Assembly (NCBI GenBank): GCA_017453885.1
Contig: JAFTDZ010000274.1
Location: 1 to 37,774, forward strand
Direction of reading: 5' to 3'
Length of the DNA: 37,774 nucleotides
Origin: Clostridia bacterium
Lineage (GTDB): Bacteria; Bacillota; Clostridia; Christensenellales; Borkfalkiaceae
Numbering within the stretch: the stretch's first letter is position 1; each line of letters opens with the position of its first letter. Made by a program: the position numbers and the translations under genes. A model generated the notes under the pieces. That model ran no database searches. It was given only the letters and a program-made list of their open reading frames with translations, and was not told the origin of the DNA. Below are positions 19,301 through 36,651 of the stretch, piece after piece.

Positions 19301-20472
19301 AAGGCGCTTGGGCGCAGAGCGGTAACTACGCCGTTTTCCTTATCGGTACCGACGGCTTCAAAGTAGTCGAATGCGTAAACGGCGTTCTCCCCATGGGCGA
19401 AGATCCGAACGGAAATCCCATCGCTCAATGGTCAACGATTCTGGACGATCCTTCCACCCTCGAGGGCGCGAATAATTACGACGTGTGGTATGTGTGGAAG
19501 CAGGTGACCGTAGTTACGATAACCACCGTAGATAAGATAGACGAGGAAGACGGATTTATAGGTTGGGAAGCCACCATAACCTTGACAGGCGGAAATTCCG
19601 GCGCAACGATAACGCGGAAGTATTCTTCCACCAACACGGCGGTACAAGGCGCGGGTTACGTAGGAGTGGAATTCTTTACCGGCGCTAAGATAAACGAGGG
19701 AAGCGGCGGATTCAATCTGAGAAGCGTTACCGTAAAGGGCGTTGAAACTTACGACGCCAAGGCGGAAAAAGCCAAAGCAGTTTCCGAAAAGATAGCCTCT
19801 CTTCCCGAAGATATCACCGCCGAAAACGTTGAGAGCGTAAAGGCGATCATCGCGGAGATAAAAGAGAGTTACGCCGCTCTCGACGACGAATATAAGCAGA
19901 CCGTGGAAAACTACGGTAAAGTTGCCGAAACCGAAGCCGCCGTGGCGGTTTACGAATCCGGCGTTAAAGTAGCCGCGGTAACGGCTGAAATAGCGGGGCT
20001 CGGAGAAGCGGGAAATACAAGGGCTTCCTATTCCGAAGCGAGGGCTTCGTATCTCTCCGTGAACGCCGCTTACGAAGCGCTTACCGACGCCGAAAAGGCT
20101 GCCGTAACGAACGCCGATAAACTCGCCGCGTTCAGGGCGGCGCTCGAGGCGCTCAAGGCGGATATAGATGCCGCCGACGGAACGGACGCGCTCATCACCG
20201 CGCTTATAACCGACGTTACCGCCGAAAACATCAACGACGCGAAAGCCGCTTACGAAGCCGCATATAACGCCTACGCGGCGCTTACCGACGCGCAGAAGGC
20301 TCTTCTCACCGAGGACGCCGCCGTTATCGAAACCGTTAAAGCCGCTATAGACGCGATCGAAACGCCCGAAAAGAAAGGTTGCTTCGGCGGGATCGACGCG
20401 GGGTACGGCATCATCTCGGCGTTTGCGGCGCTCGCTCTCGCGGCGGTCGCGAAGAGGAGATTCGCAAGATAG
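16387..20472 (+). CDS. 1361-aa secreted modular surface protein: signal peptide, four copies of an unassigned ~220-aa beta-rich module, two Ala-rich helical repeat regions and a KKGC/TM/basic C-terminal tail
   Basis: Strong RBS AAAGGAGGAAATT-ATG. The signal peptide is MKKRNLLTLLSVILALSLAIGFSTMYVSA/EG. Modules span roughly aa 30-243, 244-466, 467-690 and 905-1130. The helical repeats carry A-Y-x-A-L-T-D-x-Q-K six times. The tail is KKGCFGGIDAGYGIISAFAALALAAVAKRRFAR. Confidence 0.85.
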   Translation: MKKRNLLTLLSVILALSLAIGFSTMYVSAEGETTVDYALDGAKWQRSTNAAFDADGMRATAASYAWVTNEVGGNSTVKVTSVANIADSTWGYSWVMVKSDGTQTAWDPGQATSTGNFIAVGIGRSAGAVYVYECADGEVTVDKAWRDFNNAFVWYEDRGTTVYEITSTDTDTGVKLDITITGKENAQAGGSAVCSWTYNSANKQLWGNQNIIIGHTGSGTFDGTQYYKYNVEVTDRASAYVYDPYTRYDNDAEKWGTLSNVTVTDSGMYQTANSSSAITTPFGGNATIKLDVDFVEAAGGWGGLMVMVKGSAEDYAATAWGWGSPDRPVVNSAQGSWIAVFIGNGKCGVITCDNGTVTEKTDAEAFTGINGNSFWYVHKQKNSFVITTEDYADGAKINIAFTPSGYAANTGDTYFYTANIENKALWGEQSLAVLTTTGGGTYNAETNAYGVKIAAEDSGYEYVVDDGSVRYDNDAEKWETLSNVTVTEDGMYQTNAVNGNSSAVSVAFGANATVKLTVDYVNANGGYGGLIVMVKGTAADYAGTVWKWDSATASATSAQGSWVAVYIYNGAAGVYICKNGVVTDISNAFAGINGYSFWYVHKQTNTFVITTEDTATGANVTISFTPSGHESNTGATFSYTASVEDKMIWGEQNLSVVSLFGGGTYGADTNAYSVKVKAEASEYNKDMAKAYEVSALISAISYEEITAANYTAVRNATVAARTAYDALTQAQKNLINEAEYAVLTKAESDLENVDALVLAQYAISILPEGAFTVENYEENKELVLDAYEKYSALTDEQKAEISDDDTQKLLSLKAALDEFTVNYEKAAEVDGMIATLPETITVYGENMRAITAAKAAYDALTDYQKTLVASSAKLTAALKALSAYEYALYGNDYNFTASEENFAHVGTEGRMEYSENGVTVNIGDNGQSFVLGRKLGNGETVQFVIDSRLTNSGWGNFYFVFKHDEPVTCHSKGAWAQSGNYAVFLIGTDGFKVVECVNGVLPMGEDPNGNPIAQWSTILDDPSTLEGANNYDVWYVWKQVTVVTITTVDKIDEEDGFIGWEATITLTGGNSGATITRKYSSTNTAVQGAGYVGVEFFTGAKINEGSGGFNLRSVTVKGVETYDAKAEKAKAVSEKIASLPEDITAENVESVKAIIAEIKESYAALDDEYKQTVENYGKVAETEAAVAVYESGVKVAAVTAEIAGLGEAGNTRASYSEARASYLSVNAAYEALTDAEKAAVTNADKLAAFRAALEALKADIDAADGTDALITALITDVTAENINDAKAAYEAAYNAYAALTDAQKALLTEDAAVIETVKAAIDAIETPEKKGCFGGIDAGYGIISAFAALALAAVAKRRFAR
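17116..18453 (+). repeat. Tandem in-frame duplication, 2 x 669 nt (223 aa), inside the surface-protein gene
   Basis: 17125-17196 matches 17794-17865 with about 5 mismatches in 72 nt. 17502-17558 matches 18171-18227 with about 7 mismatches in 57 nt. The offset is exactly 669 nt in both cases. The rest of the units are similar at protein level. Confidence 0.85.
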
Positions 20473-20486
20473 TTCAACGTTGCTTT

Positions 20487-20526
20487 GCGGTTGCGGCTTG
20501 ACCGCCGCAACCGCTTAAAAGTTTTT
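20487..20526 (+). terminator. Rho-independent-like hairpin after the surface-protein gene
   Basis: A perfect 11-bp stem, GCGGTTGCGGC (20487-20497) with GCCGCAACCGC (20504-20514), has a 6-nt loop and is followed by TTAAAAGTTTTT. The next gene starts only 24 nt later, so it probably terminates only partially. Confidence 0.65.
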
Positions 20527-20549
20527 ATAAAAGCGCAAAGAGGTTCAAC

Positions 20550-22415
20550 TTGAAAAGTTTTTACGCAAAAATCAGAACGGCAATACTTATCGCCGCCGCG
20601 GCGATGCTTTGCTTTATATTGTGTTCCTGTTCCGCCGCGGAGGTAAACCTCGCCCGCGACGGCAGCGGGACCGCCACCGTGAGAATAGCCAAAACTTACA
20701 TCGACGACGGCGTTACCGTTTCCGTTACGGAAAAAGACGTAAAGGACAGGATAGACGGCTTGATAAAAGCGGTGGAATACAGTTCCGGCATGGAGAACAG
20801 GTTAAAACTGAGATCTATCAAAGATGCCGGCGAATTTTACTCTGTAAATCTTTCTTTCATGCGCGCTCAATATATCTGTACATACGGCGGTGACGCGGGC
20901 TATTACTCTTATAAAAAGTCCTCGGAATTCGTAAAGGAGGCGGACAGCGTAGCCACGCTTACGGAATATTGGTATTACGGTTCTTATAAACCGTATCTTA
21001 AAAGTTACGAAAACGCCAAATACAACTTCGCCAACTACAGGCGGCCGAGCGCAAACGCCGCTCTCAAACCAAAGCGCGCCGGCGCGGAACTTACCGAGGC
21101 TGAAGTTGCCGGACTGTTTTCGGAAAGCGGAGAACTTGCGGAAAATGCCCGCGGGCGCATATTCACTTTTTACATAGCGGATATGGAATGGCTTGAAAGC
21201 ATAACTTTCAACTTCAAAGGGAAAGTAGAGGTTTACGCCGGTACCGGAACGGTTACCGCGGGCGAACGCTCGCTGACCGTCACGCCCGTAACCGAAAAGG
21301 CGGACATAACGGGTATAGACGCCGACGGGGAAGTGATTCACGAAACTCGCGACGTAAAATGTTTTGTCGGCTACGTATATTTCACGCTCGAAGCGAATAA
21401 AGCCGCCGTCGGCATATTCGCCGTTCTCGGCGTCGCTCTCGCCGGCTTCGTTATTTACGGAATAATTACCGGCGTTTTCAAAAGGTTTTTCAAAGGGAAA
21501 TTCTTCAGGTCGCTCGTCAGGAACTACGACCTGTATCTTATGGTCATACCGGGCGTAGTTCTGCTCTTTTTGTTCGCGTATCTGCCGATGGGCGGCGTAA
21601 CGCTCGCCTTCAAAAACTACCGCACTACGGACGGGATATGGAGAAGCGAGTGGACGTCTATGTTCGGGCTCAAAAATTTTTACGATCTGTTCGCGGAGAG
21701 GAACAGTTTCCCGCTGCTGATAAAAAACACTTTCGTGCTGGCGTTCTGGAAGTTTATTTTCGGTTTTCTTATCGCCATAGCGCTCGCGGTGCTGTTCAGT
21801 TATCTTAAAAACGGGCTGTTCAAAAAGACCGTTCAGACGATCTCTTACTTCCCGTATTTTATATCGTGGGTGGTAATTTCCACCATATCGTATATGTTTC
21901 TCGCCACCGACGGCGGAATACTCAACAAGGCGATAACCGCGTTCGGCGGAACGGCGATAAACTGGTACGCCTCGCCGAAATACTGGCCGTTCATTCTCAC
22001 CTTTACGGCTATGTGGCGAACGGCGGGGTATTCTACGATAATTTACCTCGCGGCGATAGTGAATATAAATCCGTCCCTTTACGAAGCGGCGACGATAGAC
22101 GGGGCGGGCAGGTTTCAGCAACTTCTGCACATCACCCTGCCGGGGCTTATCCCCGTTCTCGGGATACAGATAGTGTTCAGCCTCGGCAATCTCGTAAGGG
22201 ACGATTTCGACCAGATATACACCATGGTAAGGGGAAGCGCTCTGTTAAGGGACACCACCGATACCATAGGTAAAATAGTTTACGAAAATATAGGAACACC
22301 CTCGGCTTACAGCAGTACCGCCGCTATGGGGCTTTTGCAGGGATTAGTGGGGCTTATACTCGTGGTGACGAGCAACGCCATTTTAAAGCGCCACGACATT
22401 CAGGGCGCGTATTGA
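20550..22415 (+). CDS. ABC sugar-transporter permease (LplB/CUT1 type) fused to a ~310-aa N-terminal lipobox, extracytoplasmic domain and extra TM
   Basis: The TTG start lies 6 nt after the AAAGAGG RBS. The lipobox-like sequence is FILCSC (Cys27). A domain with no recognisable family spans about aa 28-284, and a TM spans aa 285-309. The canonical LplB-like core follows (NYDLYLMVIPGVVLLFLFAYLPMGGVTLAFKNY ... EAATIDGAGRFQQLLHITLP, the EAA loop). Confidence 0.85.
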   Translation: MKSFYAKIRTAILIAAAAMLCFILCSCSAAEVNLARDGSGTATVRIAKTYIDDGVTVSVTEKDVKDRIDGLIKAVEYSSGMENRLKLRSIKDAGEFYSVNLSFMRAQYICTYGGDAGYYSYKKSSEFVKEADSVATLTEYWYYGSYKPYLKSYENAKYNFANYRRPSANAALKPKRAGAELTEAEVAGLFSESGELAENARGRIFTFYIADMEWLESITFNFKGKVEVYAGTGTVTAGERSLTVTPVTEKADITGIDADGEVIHETRDVKCFVGYVYFTLEANKAAVGIFAVLGVALAGFVIYGIITGVFKRFFKGKFFRSLVRNYDLYLMVIPGVVLLFLFAYLPMGGVTLAFKNYRTTDGIWRSEWTSMFGLKNFYDLFAERNSFPLLIKNTFVLAFWKFIFGFLIAIALAVLFSYLKNGLFKKTVQTISYFPYFISWVVISTISYMFLATDGGILNKAITAFGGTAINWYASPKYWPFILTFTAMWRTAGYSTIIYLAAIVNINPSLYEAATIDGAGRFQQLLHITLPGLIPVLGIQIVFSLGNLVRDDFDQIYTMVRGSALLRDTTDTIGKIVYENIGTPSAYSSTAAMGLLQGLVGLILVVTSNAILKRHDIQGAY

Positions 22416-22426
22416 GAGGTGAAGGT

Positions 22427-23302
22427 ATGATAATACGTTCCAGAGGAGAAAAGATATTCGACGTGATAAACGTGTTTATCATGATCGTTTTCGCGGCGCT
22501 TTTCATAATACCCGCGCTTCTTATGATATGCTCGTCCTTCACCGCCACGCGGGAACTCACGCTTTACGGTTACAGCCTTATAATACGCAAATTTTCGCTC
22601 GAATACTACAAGAGCATTTTCGGAATGGAGAGCAATCAATTTGTGCTATCGCTCGGCAACTCCGTATTCGTATCGGGGCTGACCACCTTCTTTATGGTGC
22701 TTACGACGAGTTTCTTCGCCTACGCCATAACCCGCAAACAGATGAAATTCAAAAAGATTCTTTCGTTCTATCTTATTATCCCTATGCTGTTCAGCGGGGG
22801 CACCATACCTTATTACCTTATCGTGAACGGTTTGGGGCTGATGAATTCGCTTTGGGCTATAATACTGCCGGGTTCGGTCAGCGCCTGGTATATACTGCTC
22901 GTAAAAAATTTCTTTTCTTCGCTGTCCGAAAGTCTTAACGAGGCGGCGGAGATAGAGGGCGCGTCTAATTTTCAGGTGTTGTTTCACATAACGCTACCGC
23001 TCGGCTTTCCGATAATAGCCACCATAATATTATATACAGCCGTCGGCACCTGGAACGACTGGTTTCAGGCTTCCATATTTCTCGACAGCAATCACTATAA
23101 CCTCTGGCCGCTGCAGGCTTTCGTAAGGCGGCTGCAGGACAGCGACGAATTCTTAAAATCGTATTTCGGCAACACTTCGCTCAATTTCAACGGAATAAGA
23201 ACTGCCGCCGTTATACTGTCGCTGATACCGATAATTATGGTGTATCCGTTCGTTCAGCGTTTCTTCATAGAGGGAACGATGGTCGGTTCGGTAAAAGAAT
23301 AA
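22427..23302 (+). CDS. ABC sugar-transporter permease (LplC/CUT1 type)
   Basis: The ATG at 22427 follows a GAGGTGAAGG RBS. The EAA-loop region is EAAEIEGASNFQVLFHITLPLGFP. There are six predicted hydrophobic segments. Confidence 0.9.
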   Translation: MIIRSRGEKIFDVINVFIMIVFAALFIIPALLMICSSFTATRELTLYGYSLIIRKFSLEYYKSIFGMESNQFVLSLGNSVFVSGLTTFFMVLTTSFFAYAITRKQMKFKKILSFYLIIPMLFSGGTIPYYLIVNGLGLMNSLWAIILPGSVSAWYILLVKNFFSSLSESLNEAAEIEGASNFQVLFHITLPLGFPIIATIILYTAVGTWNDWFQASIFLDSNHYNLWPLQAFVRRLQDSDEFLKSYFGNTSLNFNGIRTAAVILSLIPIIMVYPFVQRFFIEGTMVGSVKE

Positions 23303-23324
23303 ACTCTTAAAAGGAGGAGATATT

Positions 23325-24995
23325 ATGAAAAAAATTATAGTTTTACTACTCGTTCTCTGCGTGGGAACGGCACTGTTCTCTTGTAAGAAAGAGAAGGTCA
23401 AAGATTCCACCGGCGAGGGAACTTCCGCTTCCCAAACCTGGGAAGAAGCCAAATCGAACAGCGTAAAAATAACCGTTTATATGGACGAGAGCAACGTTTA
23501 CGGCGCTTACGTAAGGGGCTCGGAAGAAAAATTCGTCAAGGACGCCGTGGAGAAAAAATTCTGGGAAGATACCGGCAACGCAATAGATCTGAACGTGATA
23601 ATAGAATCGCATTCTACTTTCAGCAACTCCTTCGCGGGTGTAATGTCCACGGGCGCGTGGGACGCTGCCGTATCCTATCTCGGGCAGGCGGGGCTTGAAG
23701 AGACCGTTCTGAATAACGACGTTACGCTCGACCTGACCGATTCTTTAAGAAGATACGGTTCGCACATATACGGCGAAAACGGCGCCGTTGACGACGAGGC
23801 GCTATACGCCGTTACGAACTTCAACGAGGAGATAATAGGTATCCCTTCGGTAAATCTCACCAAGCAAAAGGGCGTACTCGTGCGCAAGGACTATATGGCC
23901 GCCGTTGGATACACCGAGAGCAAAACCGAGGCGGAAAATTCCGGCGGAACGCTTAAATACTGCGGCACCATAAAGGATTTTGACCAAATGGTGCGCAAGA
24001 TGAAGGCGGAGATACCCAAGTGCGTAACGCCGCTTTCCGGCAACGTTTACGATATGGAGTTTACCCTTCTCGCAGGGGCTTACGGCACCGCAGGCTACCA
24101 GTACAGGTCGATAAATTACAACGATAACGGAACGATAAACGAAGTCGTACCCGGGTGGATATCGGAAAATTACGGCAAAGTTCTCAAGCAGGAATACGAC
24201 TGGGTAAAGGACGAAATATGGGAAGCGGACAACGCCACCATAACCGAGAGCGTAAGGCTTTCCAACCTCGCGGCGGGCAAGACGGCGGTTTATTTCGCCA
24301 ACCCCACCGTAACCAACCTTATAGACGTTTCGAGAAGGGTAAAAGCGATAGATTCTTCGGCGGAATTCGTACTGCTCGATCCGCTCGACGCGGTTGACGA
24401 ATCCGGCAACGCGATAGAGGGCACGGGCGCCTTCGTGGAAGTTTCCCGCACGACGGATTGCCTTATAGTAAACAAAAAATCCAAAAAGGCCGATCTCGTT
24501 ATAAAGTATCTCGACTGGATGTATTCGGATAAAGACAATTACGAACTCTGCGCTTACGGCGTAAAGGGCTCTCAATGGAAAGATTCTTCCTTCGGCAGCG
24601 ATTATTACGAATATGCGGACGATTATTACGTAGATCACAGACCGTATTCGGGCGTTTACGCCCTGCTCCACAACGACGAGATCTCCTGCCGCATCCTGAT
24701 GCAGTATAGCGAAACGGAGAGGAACTGGATAGAAAAGGTCAGGAATTATCCCTGCCTTTCCAACCCGACGGACGGAATGCTTTTCTACGGAATGAGCGCG
24801 CTTATAAACTCCAACTTCGTAACGGCGGAAGCGGATATGTATCTCAACTGCGCTACGAAGGCTTGGGCGGGCGCTTCCGATCCCGCGGTGACGTGGCCTG
24901 CCGCCTGCGAGCATTACAGAAATCAGGCGGGCGACTATATAGTATGGCTTACTAATCAATATAAACTTTACAAAGCCGCGAGGATCAACGGATAA
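23325..24995 (+). CDS. Large (556 aa) lipoprotein solute-binding protein of the ABC importer (LplA-like)
   Basis: RBS AAAGGAGGAG. The signal peptide has the lipobox LFSC. Its size and position directly after two CUT1 permeases are typical of LplA-type extracellular solute-binding proteins. Confidence 0.8.
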   Translation: MKKIIVLLLVLCVGTALFSCKKEKVKDSTGEGTSASQTWEEAKSNSVKITVYMDESNVYGAYVRGSEEKFVKDAVEKKFWEDTGNAIDLNVIIESHSTFSNSFAGVMSTGAWDAAVSYLGQAGLEETVLNNDVTLDLTDSLRRYGSHIYGENGAVDDEALYAVTNFNEEIIGIPSVNLTKQKGVLVRKDYMAAVGYTESKTEAENSGGTLKYCGTIKDFDQMVRKMKAEIPKCVTPLSGNVYDMEFTLLAGAYGTAGYQYRSINYNDNGTINEVVPGWISENYGKVLKQEYDWVKDEIWEADNATITESVRLSNLAAGKTAVYFANPTVTNLIDVSRRVKAIDSSAEFVLLDPLDAVDESGNAIEGTGAFVEVSRTTDCLIVNKKSKKADLVIKYLDWMYSDKDNYELCAYGVKGSQWKDSSFGSDYYEYADDYYVDHRPYSGVYALLHNDEISCRILMQYSETERNWIEKVRNYPCLSNPTDGMLFYGMSALINSNFVTAEADMYLNCATKAWAGASDPAVTWPAACEHYRNQAGDYIVWLTNQYKLYKAARING

Positions 24996-25050
24996 ACAAG
25001 CAACGGTCAAATAAAAAAACGCGCGTAAAGCGCGGCAGGAGGAAAAATAT

Positions 25051-26355
25051 ATGAAAAAATTAAGGATGATAACGGCAGTTTTCGCCGCAGCGGCGATCTT
25101 GGCGGCAATGCCGCTTTTCGCGGCGTCGGCAGAGGGCTATTCTTATGAAATAGCCGAGGAAAACGACCTCGCTTCCTGGCGGTACGACTGGAACACCGTG
25201 GAGATAGGCTCGGGCAAAACCGGTTTTGAAAGCGGAAACCTGAAAATGGAGAACATAAATCAGGGCACCGCGAACTACGCACTTTACAAAACAAACAAAT
25301 TCAACGAATTTCAACTCGATTTTTACGCAAATCTGTATCTGCCTTCCCCGAGCGACACGGGCAAGGACGGAACAGATTACGCCAACCTTTACTTGACTTT
25401 TTATATCGATTTCGACGACGCTTCTCTCGTTGAGAACGCGGCTATGGCGGCTTGCCCGTGGACTATGAACAAGGGCTGGTTCTCCGTGTGCTTCGAGAGA
25501 ATACAGGGTTACAGCAAAATTCAGTTCCTCGTCAACGAAACTTTCGACGGTCACGGAGAAACCCGTTACTTCCTCGATAAGGACTGCGTAACCGCTTCCA
25601 CCGACTGGTGCGACAACAAATATCATTGGTTCAGAATAACCGCGCAAAGTACCCGCACGGCGGATTTCGCCACGTCCGGCTGTACTTACACCGTTTATAT
25701 CGACGGGGAAAAGGAAGCCGAAACTTTCCTTTGCGACAGGATATATTCCAACACCAACCTCGCGTGGGAAGAAGTCAGGTTCAGCGAGAAGAAGGGATAC
25801 TTCGGCTTCTGGGCTTCAAGCGGTTACGGAATGGGTATGGGCACAGCCGAAACCGGCGCTATGGCGGATATAAAAAATCTTTCCGTAACATCTTTCGACG
25901 GCGGGAACGACACCCCGTATCCGAGGTCGGCTATGCCCGTTGCGAATATTTCCGCCAACAATTCTTTCTCTCCAGAAGCGAGTTACGAAACGGGCGAAGA
26001 TATAGAGATAAGGCTTGCCGATCTGTTCGAGTACGACGGCGAGGATAAATTAACATATACCGCTTCTTACAACGGAGAGCCGATAGGCGAGATAAAGAAC
26101 AACTATTTCGTATGGAACCCGACGGAAGAGGGCGTTTACGATATTGACTTCACGGCGGTCACCGCAGACGATCTCTCCGCAGCGAACAAAGTCCGCCTGC
26201 GCGTGGTAAAAGGCGCCGCGCCCGTTCAGCCTGCGGAAAGTTCCGATAAAGTAAGCGAAAAGACTTCTAAAAAAGGTTGCGGTTCGTCTGTTTCCGCAGG
26301 TTTCAGCGGCATTGTTTTGCTCGCCGTTTTCGCCCTGCGCAAAAAGAGAGCGTGA
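25051..26355 (+). CDS. Secreted surface protein: ConA/LamG-like beta-sandwich (pattern-level guess), Ig-like domain and KKGC/TM/basic C-terminal tail
   Basis: RBS GGAGGA. The signal peptide ends AASA/EG. There is no catalytic motif I recognise. The end-of-domain pattern KKGYFGFWASSG...MADIKNLSVTSFD is reminiscent of lectin-like jelly rolls. The tail is KKGCGSSVSAGFSGIVLLAVFALRKKRA. Confidence 0.7.
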   Translation: MKKLRMITAVFAAAAILAAMPLFAASAEGYSYEIAEENDLASWRYDWNTVEIGSGKTGFESGNLKMENINQGTANYALYKTNKFNEFQLDFYANLYLPSPSDTGKDGTDYANLYLTFYIDFDDASLVENAAMAACPWTMNKGWFSVCFERIQGYSKIQFLVNETFDGHGETRYFLDKDCVTASTDWCDNKYHWFRITAQSTRTADFATSGCTYTVYIDGEKEAETFLCDRIYSNTNLAWEEVRFSEKKGYFGFWASSGYGMGMGTAETGAMADIKNLSVTSFDGGNDTPYPRSAMPVANISANNSFSPEASYETGEDIEIRLADLFEYDGEDKLTYTASYNGEPIGEIKNNYFVWNPTEEGVYDIDFTAVTADDLSAANKVRLRVVKGAAPVQPAESSDKVSEKTSKKGCGSSVSAGFSGIVLLAVFALRKKRA

Positions 26356-26367
26356 GCGGAAAAGACC

Positions 26368-27969
26368 ATGAAAAAGATATTTTCTATTATTATAACGGCG
26401 ATCATGGCTATTTCTCTTTCCGCCTGCGGAACAAAACCGGATTCTTCCGCCGGCGTTTCCGCGGGTAAAGATATTATTTCGATAAGTGATTCCGCCATAG
26501 CGGCGGGGTACGCGCGGTACGACGTGACTTCCGCCCTTAAAAGAAAGACGGAGGGCTTCGGCGCGCAGTTCGATACGTGCGTACTTGACAGGAACAACAA
26601 ACATCTTACCGACTGGGAAGTTTATAAAAAGGCGGTAAAAACTTCTAACCTGCAGGCGGTAAGGATAAGATTTTATCCCGAAATGTACGAGAGGATGAAC
26701 GATAATTCCGATCCGGATACGTTCGATTTCGAAAGCCCGAACGTGGATTTCAACTCCATAGAGATGGGCTATCTGTATAAACTTCTCGACCTTTTCGAGG
26801 AAAACGGCGTGCGCGTGGATCTTTCCTGGTACGGTTGCCGTTCCACTTTCGCTTCCGAGGACGGAAAAATAACGGGCAGTTGGCTCGGCGGCAAGTACGG
26901 CGAAAACGGCGTGAACAATTGGATGGTACAGCCCTCGCTCACCGAAAAACCCGCGGAAGAGTTTGCCGAATCCGTTGCGGCTTGCCTCTATTACCTCATA
27001 GAGGTGAAAAAATATACCTGCCTTTACGAATACAGCCTTTTTCCCGAGCCGGAAGGCGTGATCAAAGATATGGATCTCTACGGGAAGATAGCCGCGCTCA
27101 CGAAGGAAAAACTCGCCGGATACGGCATTGCGGATAAAATTTTGTTTTCCGGCCCCGCCGACTACGGCAACAATGCCGAAAACCTTAAAAACAAATATTT
27201 AAGCGGTAAATATCCTTACGACAAGGTAGATTCTTCCGTTTACTGTTTCCACGGTACCACGTCCGTCAGCGGTGTGGAGAGGGCGCCTTCGCCCAATGCG
27301 GCAATGTACGAATTTGCCAAAAATCACGTTGACGTATGCGAGGAGTTCGGCGCGTCCTGGGGCGTTGCCGAATGCGGAACGAGCAACTTTATTACCGCGG
27401 TCACCAACGCCGATACCGAACTTTACGACAGGGCTATAACGATGGCGCGCTTCCTTATAAATTTATGTAACGCCGGTTGCACGAATATCAAATATTTCGT
27501 TTTCGGCGACTGCAGTTACGACGGGATACTCAACGAGGAAGGGCTGTTCAGGTTCGCAAGATCCGCGTACTCGGATTCCGCGATAGATTATCAGGCGAAG
27601 CCCGTGTGGTACGCTTGGTCGCTTCTTATGCGTTACACCGATATAGGCAGCGAGGTTTATCCTATAACCGTAAATTACGACGACGGCGACGACGAGGTTT
27701 GCATAACGGCTTTTCGCTTGCCCGACGGCAGTTGGACTTACGCCGCCGCTAACATAGGCGGCGGGCAGAAGAAGATAGCGCTCGTAAACGGCAGGGCGGA
27801 CAGACCTTCCTCAATGAAGATATTCCGCCTCACCGCGGCGAGTACTCCTTCGGGAGCCGACGCCGAACTGAAAATTATAGATAAGTACGGCGATGCGGAC
27901 GCGTCCGGCGGCGTGGCGTATTTCACTATACCCGCTAACGGCATAGCGGTGCTTTCGGATAAAGAATAA
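26368..27969 (+). CDS. Lipoprotein, putative clan GH-A-like (beta/alpha)8 glycosidase with C-terminal beta-sandwich; family not assignable
   Basis: The lipobox is LSAC. GFGAQFD is like the GH30-type N-terminal motif. The candidate acid/base Glu is in LFPEPEG and the candidate nucleophile Glu is in WGVAECG. It is a paralog of the next gene. Confidence 0.65.
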   Translation: MKKIFSIIITAIMAISLSACGTKPDSSAGVSAGKDIISISDSAIAAGYARYDVTSALKRKTEGFGAQFDTCVLDRNNKHLTDWEVYKKAVKTSNLQAVRIRFYPEMYERMNDNSDPDTFDFESPNVDFNSIEMGYLYKLLDLFEENGVRVDLSWYGCRSTFASEDGKITGSWLGGKYGENGVNNWMVQPSLTEKPAEEFAESVAACLYYLIEVKKYTCLYEYSLFPEPEGVIKDMDLYGKIAALTKEKLAGYGIADKILFSGPADYGNNAENLKNKYLSGKYPYDKVDSSVYCFHGTTSVSGVERAPSPNAAMYEFAKNHVDVCEEFGASWGVAECGTSNFITAVTNADTELYDRAITMARFLINLCNAGCTNIKYFVFGDCSYDGILNEEGLFRFARSAYSDSAIDYQAKPVWYAWSLLMRYTDIGSEVYPITVNYDDGDDEVCITAFRLPDGSWTYAAANIGGGQKKIALVNGRADRPSSMKIFRLTAASTPSGADAELKIIDKYGDADASGGVAYFTIPANGIAVLSDKE

Positions 27970-27983
27970 AGGAGATAACGTTC

Positions 27984-29543
27984 GTGAATATGAAAAAATT
28001 TATTTGTTTTATTCTCGCGGCGACGGTTTTGTTTCTCGTTTCGTGCAAGAACGGAGATTCTTCCGTTCCCGATAAAGGCGCGATAACGGGGGAGATCGCC
28101 GTAAACGCGGGTTATGTCCGTTACGACGTGGGCAAAAAACTTCCCGATCCGATAGTCGGTTTCGGGGCGCAGATGGATACGGATATATTTATGCCTTACA
28201 ACAAGATGACCGAAGAGGACGAAGCCCTTTGGGAAGAGCGTATAAAGGATATGAATATCCGCTATACAAGGATAAAGATGTTCCCCGAATTTTTCGAACG
28301 CGCCAACGACAATGACGATCCCGACGTTTTCGATTGGGATTCCGAGGGCGTGGATTTCGATTGCGCGGAGATGCAGGCTTTATATAAAATTCTCGACCTG
28401 TGCGAAAAATACGATATAAAGGCGGATCTGAGTTGGTACGATTGCTGGAGCAATTTCAAGTCTTACGACGGAACGGTAAACGGCAGTTGGCTTGCGGTCG
28501 ATCAATCCGGCTGGGCGAAGGCTCCTAAAGATTTTTACGAGTACGCGGAAAACATTTCCGCCTGCCTGCAATACCTTATCAATGTAAAAAAATACACTTG
28601 TCTTTGGGGCTTCAGCAATATAGCCGAAGGGTTCATCGACGAAAACAACGTTAAAAGTTGGCCCGCCTACGTGGAGAGTTGCCGCATCATCGACGAAAAA
28701 TTAAAAAAAGACGGAATAAGGGATAAAATAAGGTTTATAAGTTCCACCGAGCGCGGCATAATTAAATATTTCAAAGAGGAATACGGCGAGATAAAGGACT
28801 ATTTTGACGTTGTAGGGCTCGGCAATTACAGTTGGGACAATAACGATCCGAACGAGGCTATCTATTCTTACTATGCGGATCTTCGTGAGGCGGTCGATGA
28901 ATTCGGCGTGCGCGACATAGTGATCTCCGAATTCTGCGAGGGCAAGCACTTTACGGACGCGGTCAATAAAACGGACATCGACGACTATACAGCCGGTCTG
29001 TATATAGCGCGCTTTTGCATAAACGCCGCTTCCGAAGGCGTTACCGGTTTCGACCACTATATCCTCGGCGACGTGTGGTTTACCGACTCCTACGTTCACA
29101 CGATGGGGCTTTGGATGTACCGCGACAGCAACGTGAAAAACCCCGAATATATTTCCTGGGCGGCTCACCCCGAATATTATTTTTACGGGCTTATCTGCAA
29201 ATATAACGAGCCGGGCAGTTACGTTTACAGGCTCGACCAGAAGTTGAATTCCGTATACGACGACAGAGATCCCGATATATGCTGCGTGGCTTTCAACCTG
29301 CCTGACGGCAGTTGGTCTTACTATCTGGCGAACAGCGGCTCTTCGGGCAAAAAGATCGCTATAGTAAACGCCCTCGCAAACCGCCCCGCCAGAATGAATT
29401 GCTACAAGATAACCGAAGCGGGCATTCCGGAGGACAGGGCTTGCGTTCTGCCTTCGGCTTATACGCAGATAGACGCGAGCGACGGCGTGGCTTACGTTAC
29501 CGTTCCGGCGAACGGTTTCGTGGTGGTATCCGACAGAAAATAA
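27984..29543 (+). CDS. Lipoprotein, tandem paralog of 26368-27969 (putative clan GH-A-like glycosidase)
   Basis: The GTG start lies 9 nt after the AAGGAG RBS. The lipobox is LVSC. Blocks shared with the upstream gene are GFGAQ.DT, DDPD.FD, DLSWY, NGSWL, CL.YLI.VKKYTCL, LPDGSW.Y and GVAY.T.PANG..V.SD. Confidence 0.65.
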   Translation: MNMKKFICFILAATVLFLVSCKNGDSSVPDKGAITGEIAVNAGYVRYDVGKKLPDPIVGFGAQMDTDIFMPYNKMTEEDEALWEERIKDMNIRYTRIKMFPEFFERANDNDDPDVFDWDSEGVDFDCAEMQALYKILDLCEKYDIKADLSWYDCWSNFKSYDGTVNGSWLAVDQSGWAKAPKDFYEYAENISACLQYLINVKKYTCLWGFSNIAEGFIDENNVKSWPAYVESCRIIDEKLKKDGIRDKIRFISSTERGIIKYFKEEYGEIKDYFDVVGLGNYSWDNNDPNEAIYSYYADLREAVDEFGVRDIVISEFCEGKHFTDAVNKTDIDDYTAGLYIARFCINAASEGVTGFDHYILGDVWFTDSYVHTMGLWMYRDSNVKNPEYISWAAHPEYYFYGLICKYNEPGSYVYRLDQKLNSVYDDRDPDICCVAFNLPDGSWSYYLANSGSSGKKIAIVNALANRPARMNCYKITEAGIPEDRACVLPSAYTQIDASDGVAYVTVPANGFVVVSDRK

Positions 29544-29559
29544 TTGCGGGAGTGTTACT

Positions 29560-31521
29560 ATGAAAAATTTACGCAACGCGCTCGTTTGCGTTATCGTTTT
29601 TGCATTTATTTCAGCCGCGGGTATCCGCGCGGAAACAACGTTTGCCGACAGCGAAGAAGTCACCGCGAGTATAGAGAGGTTGAGTCCGTTCTTTATGGTT
29701 GCGCCGTCGATAGTGGCGGACGTGGAAACCGAAGAACAACTCAACGCCTACCGCGCGAGCAAAATGGAAGTTTGCCCCGCAACGCTGATACTCAGGATAG
29801 ATTCGTCGCTCAACGTGACCGATAAGGACGGAAACGCCGTAACGATGCGCGATACGCTCGGCAATACTTATACGGGATTTCACGCTATACGCGCAAACCT
29901 GAAAAAGCGGCATATGCTTGTAGCCGTGTATCTGCGCGGCGAAGAGGAGGAAGAAGCGCTTTCCTCGTATCTTGCGGAAAATCAGGAAATTTACGATCTA
30001 ACCGTAATTTCGGCCGACGCCTCGCTCGTCAAAAAAGCGAGGGAAAACAACCCATATATCCGCGGCGCCGTGGACTATTCCGCTACTGCGGATAAAGCGG
30101 ACGTTCGGGCGATAACGGCGGAGAGCAATTTATCTAAGGCGAACTGCGTTATTCTCTCGCAGGCGCAGGCGGATAAGGAAACTTGCTATCGCATTCAGTC
30201 GATGTTCAAGTCCGTTTGGGTAAGGGCGGAAGGAACGGAAGATTACGATTATCTCAAGGCGGTATCGACCGGCGCTTACGGCGTGATAACCAGATCCGCC
30301 GACGTCGGCGCTCTCTACGACCTTAACGACCGTTTCGACGGTAACGGAAGGAGTTTTTCGCTCCCGCATTCCTTTTACAACATAGGGCACAGGGGCTGTA
30401 ATTCCGCGCCGGAAAATACGCTTAAAGCCTGTCGCCTTGCCTATGAAGGCGGCGCCACGCACATAGAAATAGACGTTAAAGTTTCAAGCGACGGAAAGTT
30501 GTTCGTCTTTCACGATAACGATCTTTCCGCAAATACTTCCGCGTCGGGGAATCCGGAAAACTACACGCTCGAACAACTTAAAAACATCGACGTAATCGGG
30601 TTTGACAAAGCCGACGCGGGCAACGCAAAAAGTTTCCCCGAGGAGCAGGCGGAAAAGATAGCCTCTCTCGACGATATTTTCGACTATTTCAAGGATAAGG
30701 ACGATATAATAATAATCTGCGAGATAAAAACGGTAAATCCGAAAGTAGTTCAACTTCTCGGCGAAAAGATAGAAGAATACGGAATGTACGGCAAAGTGGT
30801 TTCCATAGCGTTCGCATTGGATATGCTCGGGCGCATGGAGGAAAACAAACTTACCGCCCGTATCCCCACGGCGTATCTCGGCACAGTGGCGGACGCGTCG
30901 CTTGCGGACAGGTTAAAGGATCTTTCCTCAAACAACACCGCGAGCAACGTGCCGCTCGGCACAAACCTTTACCGCATGGGGCTGAAAGATCGCGGCTTCG
31001 TTTACTACGCTTGGACGTACAATACCGAAAAGGCGGTTCAGAACGCGATCAAATCGGGCGCGGTGGGCATAACGAGCAACGTCACCCCGTCTATCGGCAA
31101 GTATCCGAGGAAGATAACGCCTGCGGAAAGTTATACGCTCGATGAAACCGCGGATATTTCTTCCGCGGTATTTCCCGCAAAGGTGACCTGTTTCGACAGG
31201 ACGGAGAGCATAGAGGAATGTTCGGTATTCGCTTACCGCACAAACGGCGACAGCGCGGAAGTTATCCTTCAATACACCGATCCGTACGGAATTTACACTC
31301 TCTACAGCGACGCCGTTACCGTTGAATTTTTACGGAACGACGAAGAATCTTCTTCCGCGGCGGCTTCTTCTGAAAGCGCCGAGGAAAGCGGTTTGAACGG
31401 AAATTCCGCGCCCGGCGAAAGCGCGGGTAAAAAAGGCTGTAAAGGCGGGTTCGGCGCCGAAGGGTTATCCGTCGTTTTTGCCGCCGCGATCATCGCAATA
31501 AATAAAAGACGTGAAAAATAA
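29560..31521 (+). CDS. Secreted glycerophosphodiester phosphodiesterase (GDPD) domain protein with KKGC/TM/basic C-terminal tail
   Basis: The signal peptide ends GIRA/ET. The GDPD core is FYNIGHRGCNSAPENTLKACRLAYEGGATHIEIDVKVSSDGKLFVFHDNDL (HRG...PENT...E.D...HD). An N-terminal region of about 270 aa is unassigned, and an Ig-like region follows the GDPD domain. The tail is KKGCKGGFGAEGLSVVFAAAIIAINKRREK. Confidence 0.85.
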   Translation: MKNLRNALVCVIVFAFISAAGIRAETTFADSEEVTASIERLSPFFMVAPSIVADVETEEQLNAYRASKMEVCPATLILRIDSSLNVTDKDGNAVTMRDTLGNTYTGFHAIRANLKKRHMLVAVYLRGEEEEEALSSYLAENQEIYDLTVISADASLVKKARENNPYIRGAVDYSATADKADVRAITAESNLSKANCVILSQAQADKETCYRIQSMFKSVWVRAEGTEDYDYLKAVSTGAYGVITRSADVGALYDLNDRFDGNGRSFSLPHSFYNIGHRGCNSAPENTLKACRLAYEGGATHIEIDVKVSSDGKLFVFHDNDLSANTSASGNPENYTLEQLKNIDVIGFDKADAGNAKSFPEEQAEKIASLDDIFDYFKDKDDIIIICEIKTVNPKVVQLLGEKIEEYGMYGKVVSIAFALDMLGRMEENKLTARIPTAYLGTVADASLADRLKDLSSNNTASNVPLGTNLYRMGLKDRGFVYYAWTYNTEKAVQNAIKSGAVGITSNVTPSIGKYPRKITPAESYTLDETADISSAVFPAKVTCFDRTESIEECSVFAYRTNGDSAEVILQYTDPYGIYTLYSDAVTVEFLRNDEESSSAAASSESAEESGLNGNSAPGESAGKKGCKGGFGAEGLSVVFAAAIIAINKRREK

Positions 31522-36575: not shown

Positions 36576-36604
36576 TTGACAAAAATCGAATATTCTGTTA
36601 TATT
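36576..36604 (+). promoter_or_regulatory. Near-consensus SigA-type promoter for the FAD-protein gene
   Basis: TTGACA (36576-36581), a 17-nt spacer, then TATATT (36599-36604). It lies 48 nt upstream of the ATG at 36652, which has a GAGGTGA RBS. Confidence 0.6.
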
Positions 36605-36651
36605 TACAAAGTGTTCAATACGGACGCTTTGATTTTTTTTGAGGTGATAAA

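What the first reader, a model, noticed from the sequence alone, without database searches (positions are those of the whole stretch)
20371..31521. Three unrelated secreted proteins share a non-LPXTG C-terminal tail: KKGC, Gly/Ser spacer, TM helix, basic end
The last 28-33 residues of three signal-peptide proteins in one co-directional cluster have the same layout.
- 20371-20469: KKGC FGGIDAGYG IISAFAALALAAVA KRRFAR.
- 26269-26352: KKGC GSSVSAGFSG IVLLAVFAL RKKRA.
- 31429-31518: KKGC KGGFGAEG LSVVFAAAIIAI NKRREK.

Even the DNA is similar (AAR AAA GGY TGY). Upstream of the tails, the three proteins have unrelated domains.

A short signature followed by a hydrophobic helix and a basic cluster at the extreme C-terminus is the hallmark of processed sorting signals. 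Known examples are LPXTG/sortase, PEP-CTERM/exosortase, GlyGly-CTERM/rhombosortase and MYXO-CTERM, the last of which also has an invariant Cys. This signature is not LPXTG, and no sortase-, exosortase- or rhombosortase-like gene is in the window.

The invariant Gly-Cys could be a cleavage or lipidation site, in effect a C-terminal lipobox. From memory I cannot say whether this motif is already covered by a curated CTERM model.
Basis: partly seen in the sequence, partly recalled or inferred. Interest (0 to 1): 0.8.

Follow-up and report, generated by a model that had tools for sequence, protein, structure and literature searches.

The report
Cysteine-type C-terminal anchor signal in gut Bacillota
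Three unrelated secreted proteins in a sugar-utilisation gene cluster end in the same short tail (Gly-Cys, a membrane-spanning stretch, a basic end); this tail is conserved across gut Firmicutes and looks like an uncatalogued Gram-positive cousin of the cysteine-containing sorting signals known from myxobacteria.

Summary
ORFs 16387-20472, 25051-26355 and 29560-31521 each have an N-terminal signal peptide and end in KKGC, then 19-23 uncharged residues, then a Lys/Arg cluster. KKGC is expected 0.05 times in the window's proteome and occurs three times, always 28-33 residues from a C-terminus.

The tail is a conserved module. Orthologues of all three proteins in genomes of 27-55% G+C (Ca. Borkfalkia, Erysipelotrichaceae MAGs) keep it, while the linkers and the "KK" drift. 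A 10-tail profile searched against 1.84 billion proteins found 32 true hits, all at the extreme C-terminus, and 21 of them were new. An HMM built without the window tails picks out exactly the three window tails.

The core signature is G-C-x-[GS]-[STGN]. The distance from the Cys to the basic cluster is 19-23 residues (mode 21).

No NCBIfam or Pfam sorting-signal model covers the window tails. Related tails touch LPXTG_anchor (without LPXTG) and one passes GC_trans_RRR (MYXO-CTERM).

The best reading is a Bacillota variant of the Cys-type tripartite sorting signals, which are lipidated and then cleaved by a CPBP protease. Processing is inferred, not shown. One related contig places an Lgt-like gene overlapping a CPBP gene 3.3 kb from three tail genes. 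That is a single-case lead only.

The parts
16387..20472 (+). 1361-aa secreted protein (by-eye signal peptide MKKRNLLTLLSVILALSLAIGFSTMYVSA; repeated beta-rich modules plus helical repeats; no Pfam domain above cut-off) carrying tail 1
   Evidence: Homologues P0008-P0011 (30-38% identity) keep a GC tail.
20371..20469 (+). Tail 1: KKGC (Cys codon 20380-20382), 23 uncharged or weakly polar residues, then KRRFAR and stop
   Evidence: Leave-window-out HMM E = 6.6e-7. Profile search 46.7 bits.
25051..26355 (+). 434-aa secreted protein of unknown fold (by-eye signal peptide MKKLRMITAVFAAAAILAAMPLFAASA) carrying tail 2
   Evidence: Syntenic ~447-453-aa orthologues in L004, L005, L006, L014 and L017 all end in a Cys tail.
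26269..26352 (+). Tail 2: KKGC (Cys codon 26278-26280), 19 uncharged residues, then RKKRA and stop
   Evidence: Leave-window-out HMM E = 1e-8.
29560..31521 (+). 653-aa secreted glycerophosphodiester phosphodiesterase-family protein (PF03009, 84 bits) with an acidic Ser/Glu-rich linker, carrying tail 3
   Evidence: Orthologues P0002-P0005 (33-40% identity) keep GC tails; the more distant P0006 has a Cys-less TM tail.
31429..31518 (+). Tail 3: KKGC (Cys codon 31438-31440), 21 residues, then KRREK and stop
   Evidence: Leave-window-out HMM E = 8.3e-5.
20550..23302 (+). Two ABC sugar-transporter permeases (BPD_transp_1) lying between the tail-bearing genes; context, not part of the tail
   Evidence: The same order is seen in L005, L006, L014 and L017.
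23325..24995 (+). 556-aa N-terminal lipoprotein (lipobox LFSC), probably the solute-binding protein of the transporter; context
   Evidence: sequence. Syntenic orthologues.
26368..29543 (+). Two paralogous ~520-530-aa N-terminal lipoproteins (lipoboxes LSAC and LVSC) with no Pfam family; context. The same operon therefore uses N-terminal lipoboxes on some proteins and C-terminal Cys tails on others.
   Evidence: Conserved in L004, L005, L006, L014 and L017.

Best explanation
The three tails belong to a conserved C-terminal sorting/anchoring domain of about 35 residues found in gut Bacillota. The domain consists of a disordered linker, the signature G-C-x-[GS]-[STGN], a span of 19-23 uncharged residues (mode 21), a cluster of 4-9 mostly Lys/Arg residues, and the stop codon. 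It is attached to unrelated Sec-exported proteins, many of them encoded in glycan-utilisation loci.

Proposed mechanism:
1. The N-terminal signal peptide exports the protein (inferred from sequence).
2. The tail stops transfer and holds the protein N-out/C-in. This places the invariant Cys at the outer membrane-water interface (inferred from the fixed Cys-to-basic-cluster distance).
3. The Cys thiol is modified, most likely lipidated. The helix is then removed by an intramembrane protease of the CPBP/Rce1 type, as proposed for MYXO-CTERM. The enzyme or binding protein stays tethered to the cell surface next to its ABC importer (inferred by analogy, not shown).

This is a Gram-positive variant of the Cys-containing tripartite sorting signals (MYXO-CTERM/'GC_trans_RRR', Synerg-, JDVT- and CGP-CTERM). 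The confidence given is for the processed-signal reading. That the module itself is real and conserved is about 0.95.
For: - Shown, the module is real and non-random.
- Shown, orthologues of all three window proteins keep the Cys tail while the adjacent linkers diverge. They come from genomes of 27-55% G+C, including a contig whose NusA is identical to Ca. Borkfalkia WP_129226904.1 and the Erysipelotrichaceae MAG GCA_022767485.1.
- Shown, a 10-tail profile searched against 1.84e9 representative proteins gave 33 hits at E <= 1e-3. Thirty-two are true tails; 31 end 0-2 residues from the C-terminus and one ends 6 residues from it. Twenty-one come from proteins not related to the queries. The full-length ones (P0027, P0028, P0038, P0039) have signal peptides and unrelated bodies.
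- Shown, in 39 aligned tails position -1 is G in 38, +2 is G or S in 39, and +3 is S/T/G/N in 36. Among 43 tails the Cys-to-basic distance is 19-23 residues, with 21 in 25 of them. A plain anchor would not need this constraint.
- Shown, in strain-level variants the tail varies but G-C does not.
- Shown, a more distant GDPD homologue (P0006) has a longer, Cys-less hydrophobic tail instead.
- Shown, there is sequence contact with the known kind. The P0028 tail passes TIGR03382 GC_trans_RRR (20.7 vs 15.85 bits, model positions 1-26 of 27, starting at G-C). The P0002 tail aligns to MYXO-CTERM from its G-C at 12.1 bits.
- Literature: Cys-type tripartite signals are cleaved by CPBP proteases. MrtX cleavage of TraA needs the Cys, and lipidation by an Lgt-like enzyme is the working model (PMC11980579; Haft preprint).
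- Lead, n=1: contig L008 has three GC-tail genes. Lying 3.3 kb away is a CPBP gene with intact EExxxR, FxxxH and HxxxN motifs. It overlaps by 26 nt an Lgt-family gene that scores below the curated Lgt cut-offs. The arrangement recurs in a second sample.
Against: - No step of processing is shown.
- No CPBP, Lgt or other candidate sorting enzyme is in the window or in 12 of the 13 independent tail-bearing loci examined, about 197 kb in total.
- The L008 CPBP's best curated match (MrtS, 44.6 bits) is non-specific. Control CPBPs from unrelated contexts score the same.
- The L008 Lgt-like gene sits in an operon with an ordinary N-terminal lipoprotein. It may simply be the housekeeping Lgt.
- In most tails the 21 uncharged residues are long enough for a stable, unprocessed TM anchor.
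- A presumably monoderm cell does not need to cut a TM anchor to display a protein.
- The window tails themselves match no MYXO-, Synerg-, JDVT- or CGP-CTERM model.
Confidence: 0.55

Rival explanations
1. The tail is a plain, unprocessed C-terminal transmembrane anchor (stop-transfer tail). The juxtamembrane Gly-Cys is conserved for another reason, such as a disulfide-linked dimer, S-acylation without cleavage, or packing against the neighbouring ABC permease.
For: - The uncharged span (mode 21 residues) followed by Lys/Arg obeys the positive-inside rule and suffices for a stable TM helix.
- No sorting enzyme is found in 12 of 13 loci.
- Distant homologues use a simple Cys-less TM tail for what is presumably the same purpose (P0006, P0013).
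Against: - Simple anchors rarely keep an invariant Cys, G at -1, G or S at +2 and a fixed spacing across unrelated proteins and across taxa of 27-55% G+C.
- In the window's own tails, charged residues (D at +5, E at +7) shorten the hydrophobic core to about 9-14 residues. That resembles cleaved signals more than permanent anchors.
- The architecture and part of the sequence coincide with signals known to be cleaved.
Confidence: 0.3
2. The tail is a degenerate LPXTG-type cell-wall sorting signal that is still handled by a sortase. The enzyme would cleave at or near G-C-G and link the protein to peptidoglycan.
For: - Tails of the low-G+C subfamily score 16-20 bits on TIGR01167 LPXTG_anchor (cut-off 15.9) and 19.8 bits on Pfam Gram_pos_anchor (cut-off 20).
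- The hosts are Bacillota.
Against: - Those matches cover only model positions 9/10-34, the hydrophobic and basic parts. No tail contains LPXTG or a known variant.
- The window's tails do not hit the LPXTG models at all.
- The conserved residue is Cys, which no known sortase motif has.
- No sortase gene is in the window or in any of the fetched loci (gene tables).
Confidence: 0.06
3. The tail is the substrate of a rhomboid/rhombosortase-like or other non-CPBP intramembrane protease, a GlyGly-CTERM-like logic acting on the small G/S residues. The Cys would play a secondary role.
For: - The Cys is followed by small residues: G or S at +2 in 39 of 39 tails, and GGS in the largest subfamily. This is reminiscent of Gly-rich cleavage sites.
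Against: - No hit to the GlyGly-CTERM model at E <= 10, or at E <= 1.
- About a third of the tails have K at +1, so they lack a GG pair.
- The only strictly invariant residue is the Cys.
- No rhomboid gene is in any locus.
Confidence: 0.05
4. The resemblance is a chance or compositional similarity among three hydrophobic C-termini.
For: Short hydrophobic and basic tails are compositionally similar everywhere; many CTERM models give sub-threshold hits on the TM part.
Against: - Poisson P = 2.5e-5 for KKGC alone, before position is taken into account.
- Orthologues conserve the motif.
- The independent HMM recovers exactly the three tails.
- The database hits are all C-terminal.
Confidence: 0.01

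Closest known systems
MYXO-CTERM (TIGR03901; older model TIGR03382 'GC_trans_RRR') with myxosortase MrtX, a CPBP/Rce1-like glutamic intramembrane protease
   Same: - Tripartite C-terminal domain: Gly-Cys signature, one membrane span, basic cluster at the extreme C-terminus.
- Found on Sec-exported, otherwise unrelated proteins, behind disordered linkers, with several per locus or genome.
- One family member (P0028) passes the TIGR03382 cut-off.
   Different: - Hosts are Bacillota (Christensenellales, Erysipelotrichaceae), not Myxococcota or Bradymonadales. There is presumably no outer membrane or T2SS step.
- There is a single Cys (no GCGC), followed by [GS]-[STGN].
- The end is Lys-rich rather than Arg-rich.
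- The window tails do not match either model.
- No Mrt-core protease has been identified. The L008 CPBP scores 17.6 bits against a cut-off of 100.
Synerg-CTERM (TIGR04564) with MrtS; JDVT-CTERM with MrtJ; CGP-CTERM with MrtA
   Same: An invariant Cys in a small-residue signature, followed by a TM segment and a basic cluster. Synerg-CTERM also has a Ser/Gly-rich run next to the Cys.
   Different: - No invariant Pro in the TM (Synerg-CTERM), no DP nine residues after the Cys (JDVT-CTERM), and no GP directly after the Cys (CGP-CTERM).
- Scores are far below cut-off: 12.7 vs 22.5 bits for Synerg-CTERM.
- The lineages differ.
LPXTG cell-wall sorting signal with sortase (TIGR01167, PF00746)
   Same: - Gram-positive hosts.
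- The hydrophobic segment plus R/K-K-K-R-E end is similar enough that 13 of 18 tails give E <= 1 on TIGR01167. At least five of them (16.3-19.8 bits) exceed its 15.9-bit cut-off.
   Different: - There is no LPXTG-like pentapeptide.
- The conserved residue is Cys.
- The matches exclude the motif part of the model.
- The motif-to-membrane distance is shorter.
N-terminal lipoprotein lipobox with Lgt and Lsp
   Same: A Cys flanked by small residues ([GAS]-C-[GSK]) at the outer membrane interface next to one hydrophobic helix. The same operons also encode classical lipoproteins.
   Different: - The topology is a mirror image, with the helix C-terminal to the Cys.
- Positions -3/-2 are Lys/Ser/Glu, not Leu-[ASTVI].
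- The motif lies at the C-terminus.

Membership tests
[quoted passage not shown] | Short signature with an invariant Cys, then a hydrophobic TM segment, then a basic cluster, at the extreme C-terminus of proteins that share no other homology | tested here: met
   Cys in 43 of 43 tails, a 19-23-residue span, a 4-9-residue basic end, and unrelated protein bodies.
[quoted passage not shown] | A cognate CPBP (PF02517) intramembrane protease co-occurs in the same genomes | tested here: inconclusive
   No complete genome was available. One of 13 loci (L008) has a CPBP 3.3 kb from three tail genes. Its similarity to Mrt models is no better than that of control CPBPs.
[quoted passage not shown] | The tail is proteolytically removed, dependent on the Cys | not testable with these tools
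   Needs mass spectrometry and mutants. Shown only for TraA/MrtX in M. xanthus (PMC11980579).
MYXO-CTERM (TIGR03901.2 / TIGR03382) | Score above the curated cut-off of the model | tested here: not met
   Window tails: no hit at E <= 10. P0002 tail: 12.1 vs 20 bits. Only 1 of the 32 tails tested (P0028) passes TIGR03382, at 20.7 vs 15.85 bits.
MYXO-CTERM (TIGR03901.2 / TIGR03382) | Restricted to Myxococcota/Bradymonadales; frequent second Cys (GCGC) | tested here: not met
   Hosts are Bacillota. Position +2 is G or S, never C.
Synerg-CTERM (TIGR04564) | Ser/Gly cluster ending in Cys with no spacer, an invariant Pro within a Leu-rich TM, Synergistota | tested here: not met
   Best score 12.7 vs 22.5 bits, on the TM part only. 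No conserved Pro.
JDVT-CTERM / CGP-CTERM | DP motif nine residues after the Cys (JDVT); GP directly after the Cys (CGP) | tested here: not met
   Position table. No model hit.
LPXTG sortase signal (TIGR01167 / PF00746) | LPXTG (or variant) pentapeptide upstream of the hydrophobic segment | tested here: not met
   No such motif in any tail. Model matches start at position 9-10 of 34, after the motif.
LPXTG sortase signal (TIGR01167 / PF00746) | Hydrophobic segment plus a positively charged tail at the C-terminus | tested here: met
   This is a generic feature and explains the above-cut-off TIGR01167 scores on some tails.
Bacterial lipoprotein lipobox (Lgt/Lsp substrates) | [LVI][ASTVI][GAS]-C at the end of an N-terminal signal peptide | tested here: not met
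   The motif is C-terminal. Positions -3/-2 are mostly K/S/E and the hydrophobic helix follows the Cys. Only the small residue at -1 agrees.
GlyGly-CTERM / PEP-CTERM / PGF-CTERM (rhombosortase, exosortase, archaeosortase) | Match to the curated signal model and its signature motif | tested here: not met
   Only sub-threshold hits on the TM part (PEP_CTERM <= 13.5 vs 16 bits). No GlyGly-CTERM hit.

The most novel reading that the evidence does not exclude
Gut Bacillota possess a dedicated 'C-terminal lipoprotein' pathway. A divergent Lgt paralogue would diacylglycerylate the invariant Cys of the G-C-x-[GS] tail. A translationally coupled CPBP/Rce1-like protease would then cut off the helix, as suggested by the overlapping CPBP and Lgt-like genes beside three tail-bearing genes in contig L008. 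If true, this would be the first Cys-type CTERM system in a monoderm. It would also point to the lipid transferase that is still missing from the MYXO-CTERM/myxosortase model.
Probability: 0.17. Interest if true: 0.85.

Novelty: new variant of a known kind. Interest (0 to 1): 0.62.

Why it matters
- It would add a Gram-positive member to the Cys-containing sorting signals. Those are so far described only from Myxococcota, some Pseudomonadota, Synergistota and Thermococcales.
- It marks a set of surface-displayed glycan-degrading and glycan-binding proteins in poorly studied gut Clostridia and Erysipelotrichia.
- It has an annotation consequence. The tails are currently unnamed ("hypothetical protein") or may be mislabelled, because some pass the LPXTG_anchor cut-off without an LPXTG motif and one passes a MYXO-CTERM model.
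- If the Lgt-like/CPBP pair proves to be the machinery, it gives a simple, testable two-gene system for an open question in the myxosortase field: which enzyme modifies the Cys before cleavage.

Tried and rejected
- Word-index homologue search with the three tails alone found nothing.
- Exact look-up of the 434-aa protein: not on record.
- Genome-collection scan with the L008 CPBP gave only three remote CPBPs (29-34% identity) in unrelated contexts. None had an Lgt neighbour, so the CPBP/Lgt link could not be replicated in another organism.
- Metagenome scan with a tail alignment. The 18-tail alignment was too diverse. The 6-tail alignment gave only two short contigs, L012 and L013. They contribute three more tail genes (one on L013, two adjacent on L012) but no enzyme.
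- Viral-contig scans with the Lgt-like protein and with the tails: nothing.
- PDB sequence search with the L008 Lgt-like and CPBP proteins: no hits.
- I first took the CPBP's best hit to MrtS as meaningful and rejected that after the control CPBPs scored the same.
- I considered the L008 pair as an Lgt plus LnsB-like N-acylation system. That is less likely, because LnsB lacks the CPBP catalytic motifs (PMC7387801) and the L008 protein keeps them. It is not excluded.
- Cluster-member look-ups for source names gave only "hypothetical protein" and two taxon clues (Erysipelotrichaceae MAG, Ca. Borkfalkia).
- Literature searches for a described Bacillota Cys-CTERM found none in the held library.
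- The long ORF 36604-37668 (-) is a spurious antisense frame. The real gene there is a + strand FAD-type oxidoreductase that runs off the window.

Full report
**1.

The window has three co-directional ORFs, 16387-20472 (1361 aa), 25051-26355 (434 aa) and 29560-31521 (653 aa).
- KKGC-FGGIDAGYGIISAFAALALAAVA-KRRFAR
- KKGC-GSSVSAGFSGIVLLAVFAL-RKKRA
- KKGC-KGGFGAEGLSVVFAAAIIAI-NKRREK

Each protein begins with a typical signal peptide. Only the third has a Pfam domain above cut-off (GDPD, PF03009, 84 bits). Pairwise BLAST finds nothing convincing between the three outside the tails.

KKGC is expected 0.054 times in the 11,948 residues of the window's 23 proteins. It occurs three times, always 28-33 residues from a C-terminus (Poisson P = 2.5e-5 before position is considered). 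The DNA agrees only over the 12 motif bases, so the tails are not recent copies of one another.

**2. Context**

The window is a Gram-positive glycan-utilisation locus. It encodes:
- GH2, GH28, DUF2961, GH43, DUF4434, an alpha-L-rhamnosidase and a GDSL/GH63-like fusion;
- a hybrid histidine kinase;
- two ABC permeases, a lipoprotein binding protein and two paralogous lipoproteins without a Pfam family;
- a GlcNAc-2-epimerase-like protein, an AraC regulator, an FGGY kinase and a class II aldolase.

There is no sortase, exosortase, rhomboid, CPBP or Lgt gene. The apparent 354-aa ORF at 36604-37668 (-) is antisense noise over a + strand oxidoreductase. Within one operon, some proteins carry classical N-terminal lipoboxes (LFSC, LSAC, LVSC) and three carry the C-terminal Cys tail.

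**3. The tail is conserved in orthologues, but as G-C, not KKGC**

Homologues of the GDPD protein at 33-40% identity end as follows:
- ...KNGCGSHLAAG...IRSKRT
- ...GKGCKGSAVGG...KKSKTN
- ...SSGCGSSLVGG...KKKREN
- ...GGCRSSLNAG...KRARLL

A more distant homologue (P0006) has a longer, Cys-less TM tail.

Homologues of the 1361-aa protein at 30-38% identity end as follows:
- ...KKGCKGTTTGG...KKRRK (an Erysipelotrichaceae MAG protein, MCI5744725.1)
- ...AGCGSNAAYAG...KKKRA
- ...FGCKGSIASS...KKKKR

Fetched contigs show the same gene order in six other assemblies whose G+C ranges from 27.5% to 51%: large tail protein, two permeases, binding protein, ~450-aa tail protein, two ~520-aa lipoproteins, GDPD tail protein. 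The ~450-aa orthologue of the window's second protein carries a Cys tail in every one. One of these reads GGGKCSGS, so only the Cys is strictly invariant.

Contig L001 carries a NusA identical to Ca. Borkfalkia WP_129226904.1 (Clostridia, Christensenellales). Within strain-level clusters the tail varies at several positions but never at G-C.

**4. The tail is a module on unrelated proteins**

A profile of ten tails (34 positions) was searched against 1.84 billion representative proteins and gave 33 hits at E <= 1e-3. One is a false positive, an internal repeat.
- Of the other 32, 31 matches end 0-2 residues from the C-terminus and one ends 6 residues from it.
- Twenty-one come from proteins unrelated to the queries.
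- Many are fragments from short contigs. The full-length ones (853, 505, 686 and 905 aa) have signal peptides and dissimilar bodies.

The largest subfamily reads (E/K)KKGC(G/K)GS(I/V)VASIFGVLALAG.VVVLRKKREE. Scanning every fetched locus showed that essentially every gene ending in a hydrophobic-plus-basic tail has the Cys motif. An HMM built from 36 non-window tails recovers all of these and nothing else in 161,596 six-frame residues. In the window it hits only the three reported tails (E = 1e-8, 6.6e-7, 8.3e-5; next best 0.36).

**5. Anatomy**

Thirty-nine tails were aligned on the Cys:
- Position -1 is G in 38.
- Position +1 is G (17) or K (13), with N, R, S or F in the rest.
- Position +2 is G or S in all 39.
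- Position +3 is S/T/G/N in 36.
- Positions -2 and -3 are often K.

Among 43 distinct tails, the distance from the Cys to the first residue of the basic cluster is 19-23, with 21 in 25 of them. The basic end is 4-9 residues long. The Cys therefore sits one membrane span away from the cytoplasmic basic cluster, at the outer interface. In the window's own tails, D at +5 or E at +7 leaves only about 9-14 strongly hydrophobic residues.

**6. Comparison with curated models**

- None of the three window tails matches any NCBIfam (release 20.0) or Pfam sorting-signal model. The only hit is Rumino_NPXTG at 12.6 vs 23.5 bits, on the TM part.
- Twenty-six further tails gave mostly sub-threshold, TM-only hits.
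- Exception 1: the low-G+C subfamily scores 16-20 bits on TIGR01167 LPXTG_anchor (cut-off 15.9). The match covers only model positions 9/10-34, after the LPXTG motif, which the tails lack. One more tail (P0009) reaches 16.1 bits in the same way.
- Exception 2: the P0028 tail scores 20.7 bits (cut-off 15.85) on TIGR03382 "GC_trans_RRR", an older MYXO-CTERM model. The match covers positions 1-26 of 27 and starts at its G-C.

The family thus lies next to, but outside, the known models. Source annotations seen were only "hypothetical protein" or a misleading "tetratricopeptide repeat protein".

**7. What is known about this kind of signal**

Haft's preprint (10.1101/2023.06.07.544157) defines four Cys-containing tripartite C-terminal signals:
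- MYXO-CTERM (Myxococcota, Bradymonadales)
- JDVT-CTERM (some Pseudomonadota)
- Synerg-CTERM (Synergistota)
- CGP-CTERM (Thermococcales)

It assigns each a CPBP/Rce1-like glutamic intramembrane protease. The text does not mention Firmicutes, Bacillota or Clostridia at all, and "Gram-positive" occurs only in the LPXTG/sortase background.

Guo, Haft and Wall (PMC11980579) showed that MrtX cleaves the MYXO-CTERM of TraA and that this needs the conserved cysteines. They proposed prior lipidation of the Cys by a still unidentified transferase and named Lgt as the leading candidate. Searches of the held library found no description of a Bacillota counterpart.

**8. Mechanism proposed**

Shown: a conserved, modular, C-terminal Cys-TM-basic domain on Sec-exported proteins.

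Inferred:
- N-out/C-in insertion with the Cys at the outer interface.
- Modification of the Cys thiol, probably lipidation.
- Removal of the helix by an intramembrane protease.
- A C-terminally tethered enzyme or binding protein next to its ABC importer.

I put about 0.55 on this processed-signal reading and about 0.3 on an unprocessed tail anchor with a conserved juxtamembrane Cys. Sortase- or rhomboid-type processing gets small probabilities.

**9. A lead on the machinery (n = 1)**

Contig L008 (31% G+C) has three tail-bearing genes (...KKGCGGSVV......DKGCGGAIM......DEGCGGSVV...). A divergent operon begins next to them, and its CPBP gene lies 3.3 kb from the nearest tail gene. The operon encodes a LacI regulator, an N-terminal lipoprotein hydrolase, a 252-aa PF02517 CPBP protein, a 250-aa PF01790 Lgt-family protein and an esterase. 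The CPBP gene's end overlaps the start of the Lgt-family gene by 26 nt. The same arrangement is present in an independent sample, so it is not an assembly chimera.

The Lgt-like protein scores well below the curated Lgt cut-offs (129.7 vs 334 bits; 63.3 vs 118.9 bits). The CPBP keeps the EExxxR, FxxxH and HxxxN motifs (motif definitions from my own knowledge of the CPBP family). S. aureus LnsB, by contrast, has lost them (PMC7387801).

Cautions:
- The CPBP's best match, MrtS, is no better than for control CPBPs.
- The Lgt-like gene could be the organism's ordinary lgt, serving the adjacent lipoprotein.
- None of the other 12 tail-bearing loci (about 197 kb in total) holds either gene.
- I could not find a second organism with the pair.

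A housekeeping sorting enzyme is not expected to be linked to its substrates, so the negatives are weak. The positive is a single case.

**10. Verdict**

The tail is a sorting-signal-like module that current models do not cover. Its signature is G-C-x-[GS]-[STGN] rather than KKGC. It belongs to an already described kind (Cys-type tripartite CTERM signals) in a new lineage and envelope type. Processing is not demonstrated.
- Novelty: new variant of a known kind.
- Interest: 0.62.
- The decisive work is a genome-wide census with phylogenetic profiling, plus C-terminal mass spectrometry with Cys mutants.

Noticed in passing
L008:944-2429 (- strand); also L022:3363-4848: A CPBP/Rce1-like gene overlaps an Lgt-family gene by 26 nt. 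Both lie inside a LacI-regulated catabolic operon, 3.3 kb from three Cys-tail genes. The Lgt-like protein scores below the curated Lgt cut-offs. The arrangement is seen in two independent samples.
   Followed up: partly
tails of P0030, P0031, P0036, P0023, P0019 and P0009: The curated LPXTG_anchor model TIGR01167 exceeds its own cut-off (16-20 vs 15.9 bits) on tails that contain no LPXTG motif. One tail (P0028) passes the MYXO-CTERM model TIGR03382. Automatic annotation may therefore mislabel these proteins.
   Followed up: partly
window 20550-22415 (+): The first ABC permease (621 aa) has an N-terminal extension of about 300 aa, with a lipoprotein-like start (ILCSCS) and an extracytoplasmic domain ahead of the BPD_transp_1 core. 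The long form (602-627 aa) is conserved in the syntenic loci L005, L006, L014 and L017.
   Followed up: no
window 26368-27969 and 27984-29543 (+): Two tandem paralogous lipoproteins of ~520-530 aa match no Pfam family. They are conserved as a pair in most syntenic loci (L004, L005, L006, L014, L017); L020 holds a similar ~517-aa gene. They may represent an undescribed glycoside hydrolase or binding family.
   Followed up: no
P0029 (63 aa, from the representative search): A short ORF in which a lipoprotein-type signal peptide ending in the lipobox-like GLAGC runs straight into the ...GCGSNAAYAGF...KKKRA tail of the P0009 family. It is either a chimera or frameshift, or a curiosity that joins an N-terminal lipobox to the C-terminal motif at the shared G-C.
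   Followed up: no
P0006 (GDPD homologue) and P0012, P0013 (homologues of the 1361-aa protein): More distant homologues replace the Cys tail with Cys-less C-terminal TM anchors (for example ...TDNTGLIIGLLVGGGVLVLGAAVAAMVVIRRRKRQ). The C-terminal anchoring device is apparently swapped between lineages.
   Followed up: no
window 16387-20472 (+): The 1361-aa protein contains several ~200-aa repeats without a Pfam match. It also has repeated helical 'A.YDALT..QK' units that only weakly touch PF07813 (LTXXQ, 22.1 vs 24.3 bits).
   Followed up: no
window 36604-37668 (-) versus about 36646-37774 (+): The long minus-strand ORF is an antisense artefact. The real gene is a + strand FAD/NAD-binding oxidoreductase (MKTDVVIVGAGPAG...) that runs off the 3' end of the window.
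   Followed up: yes
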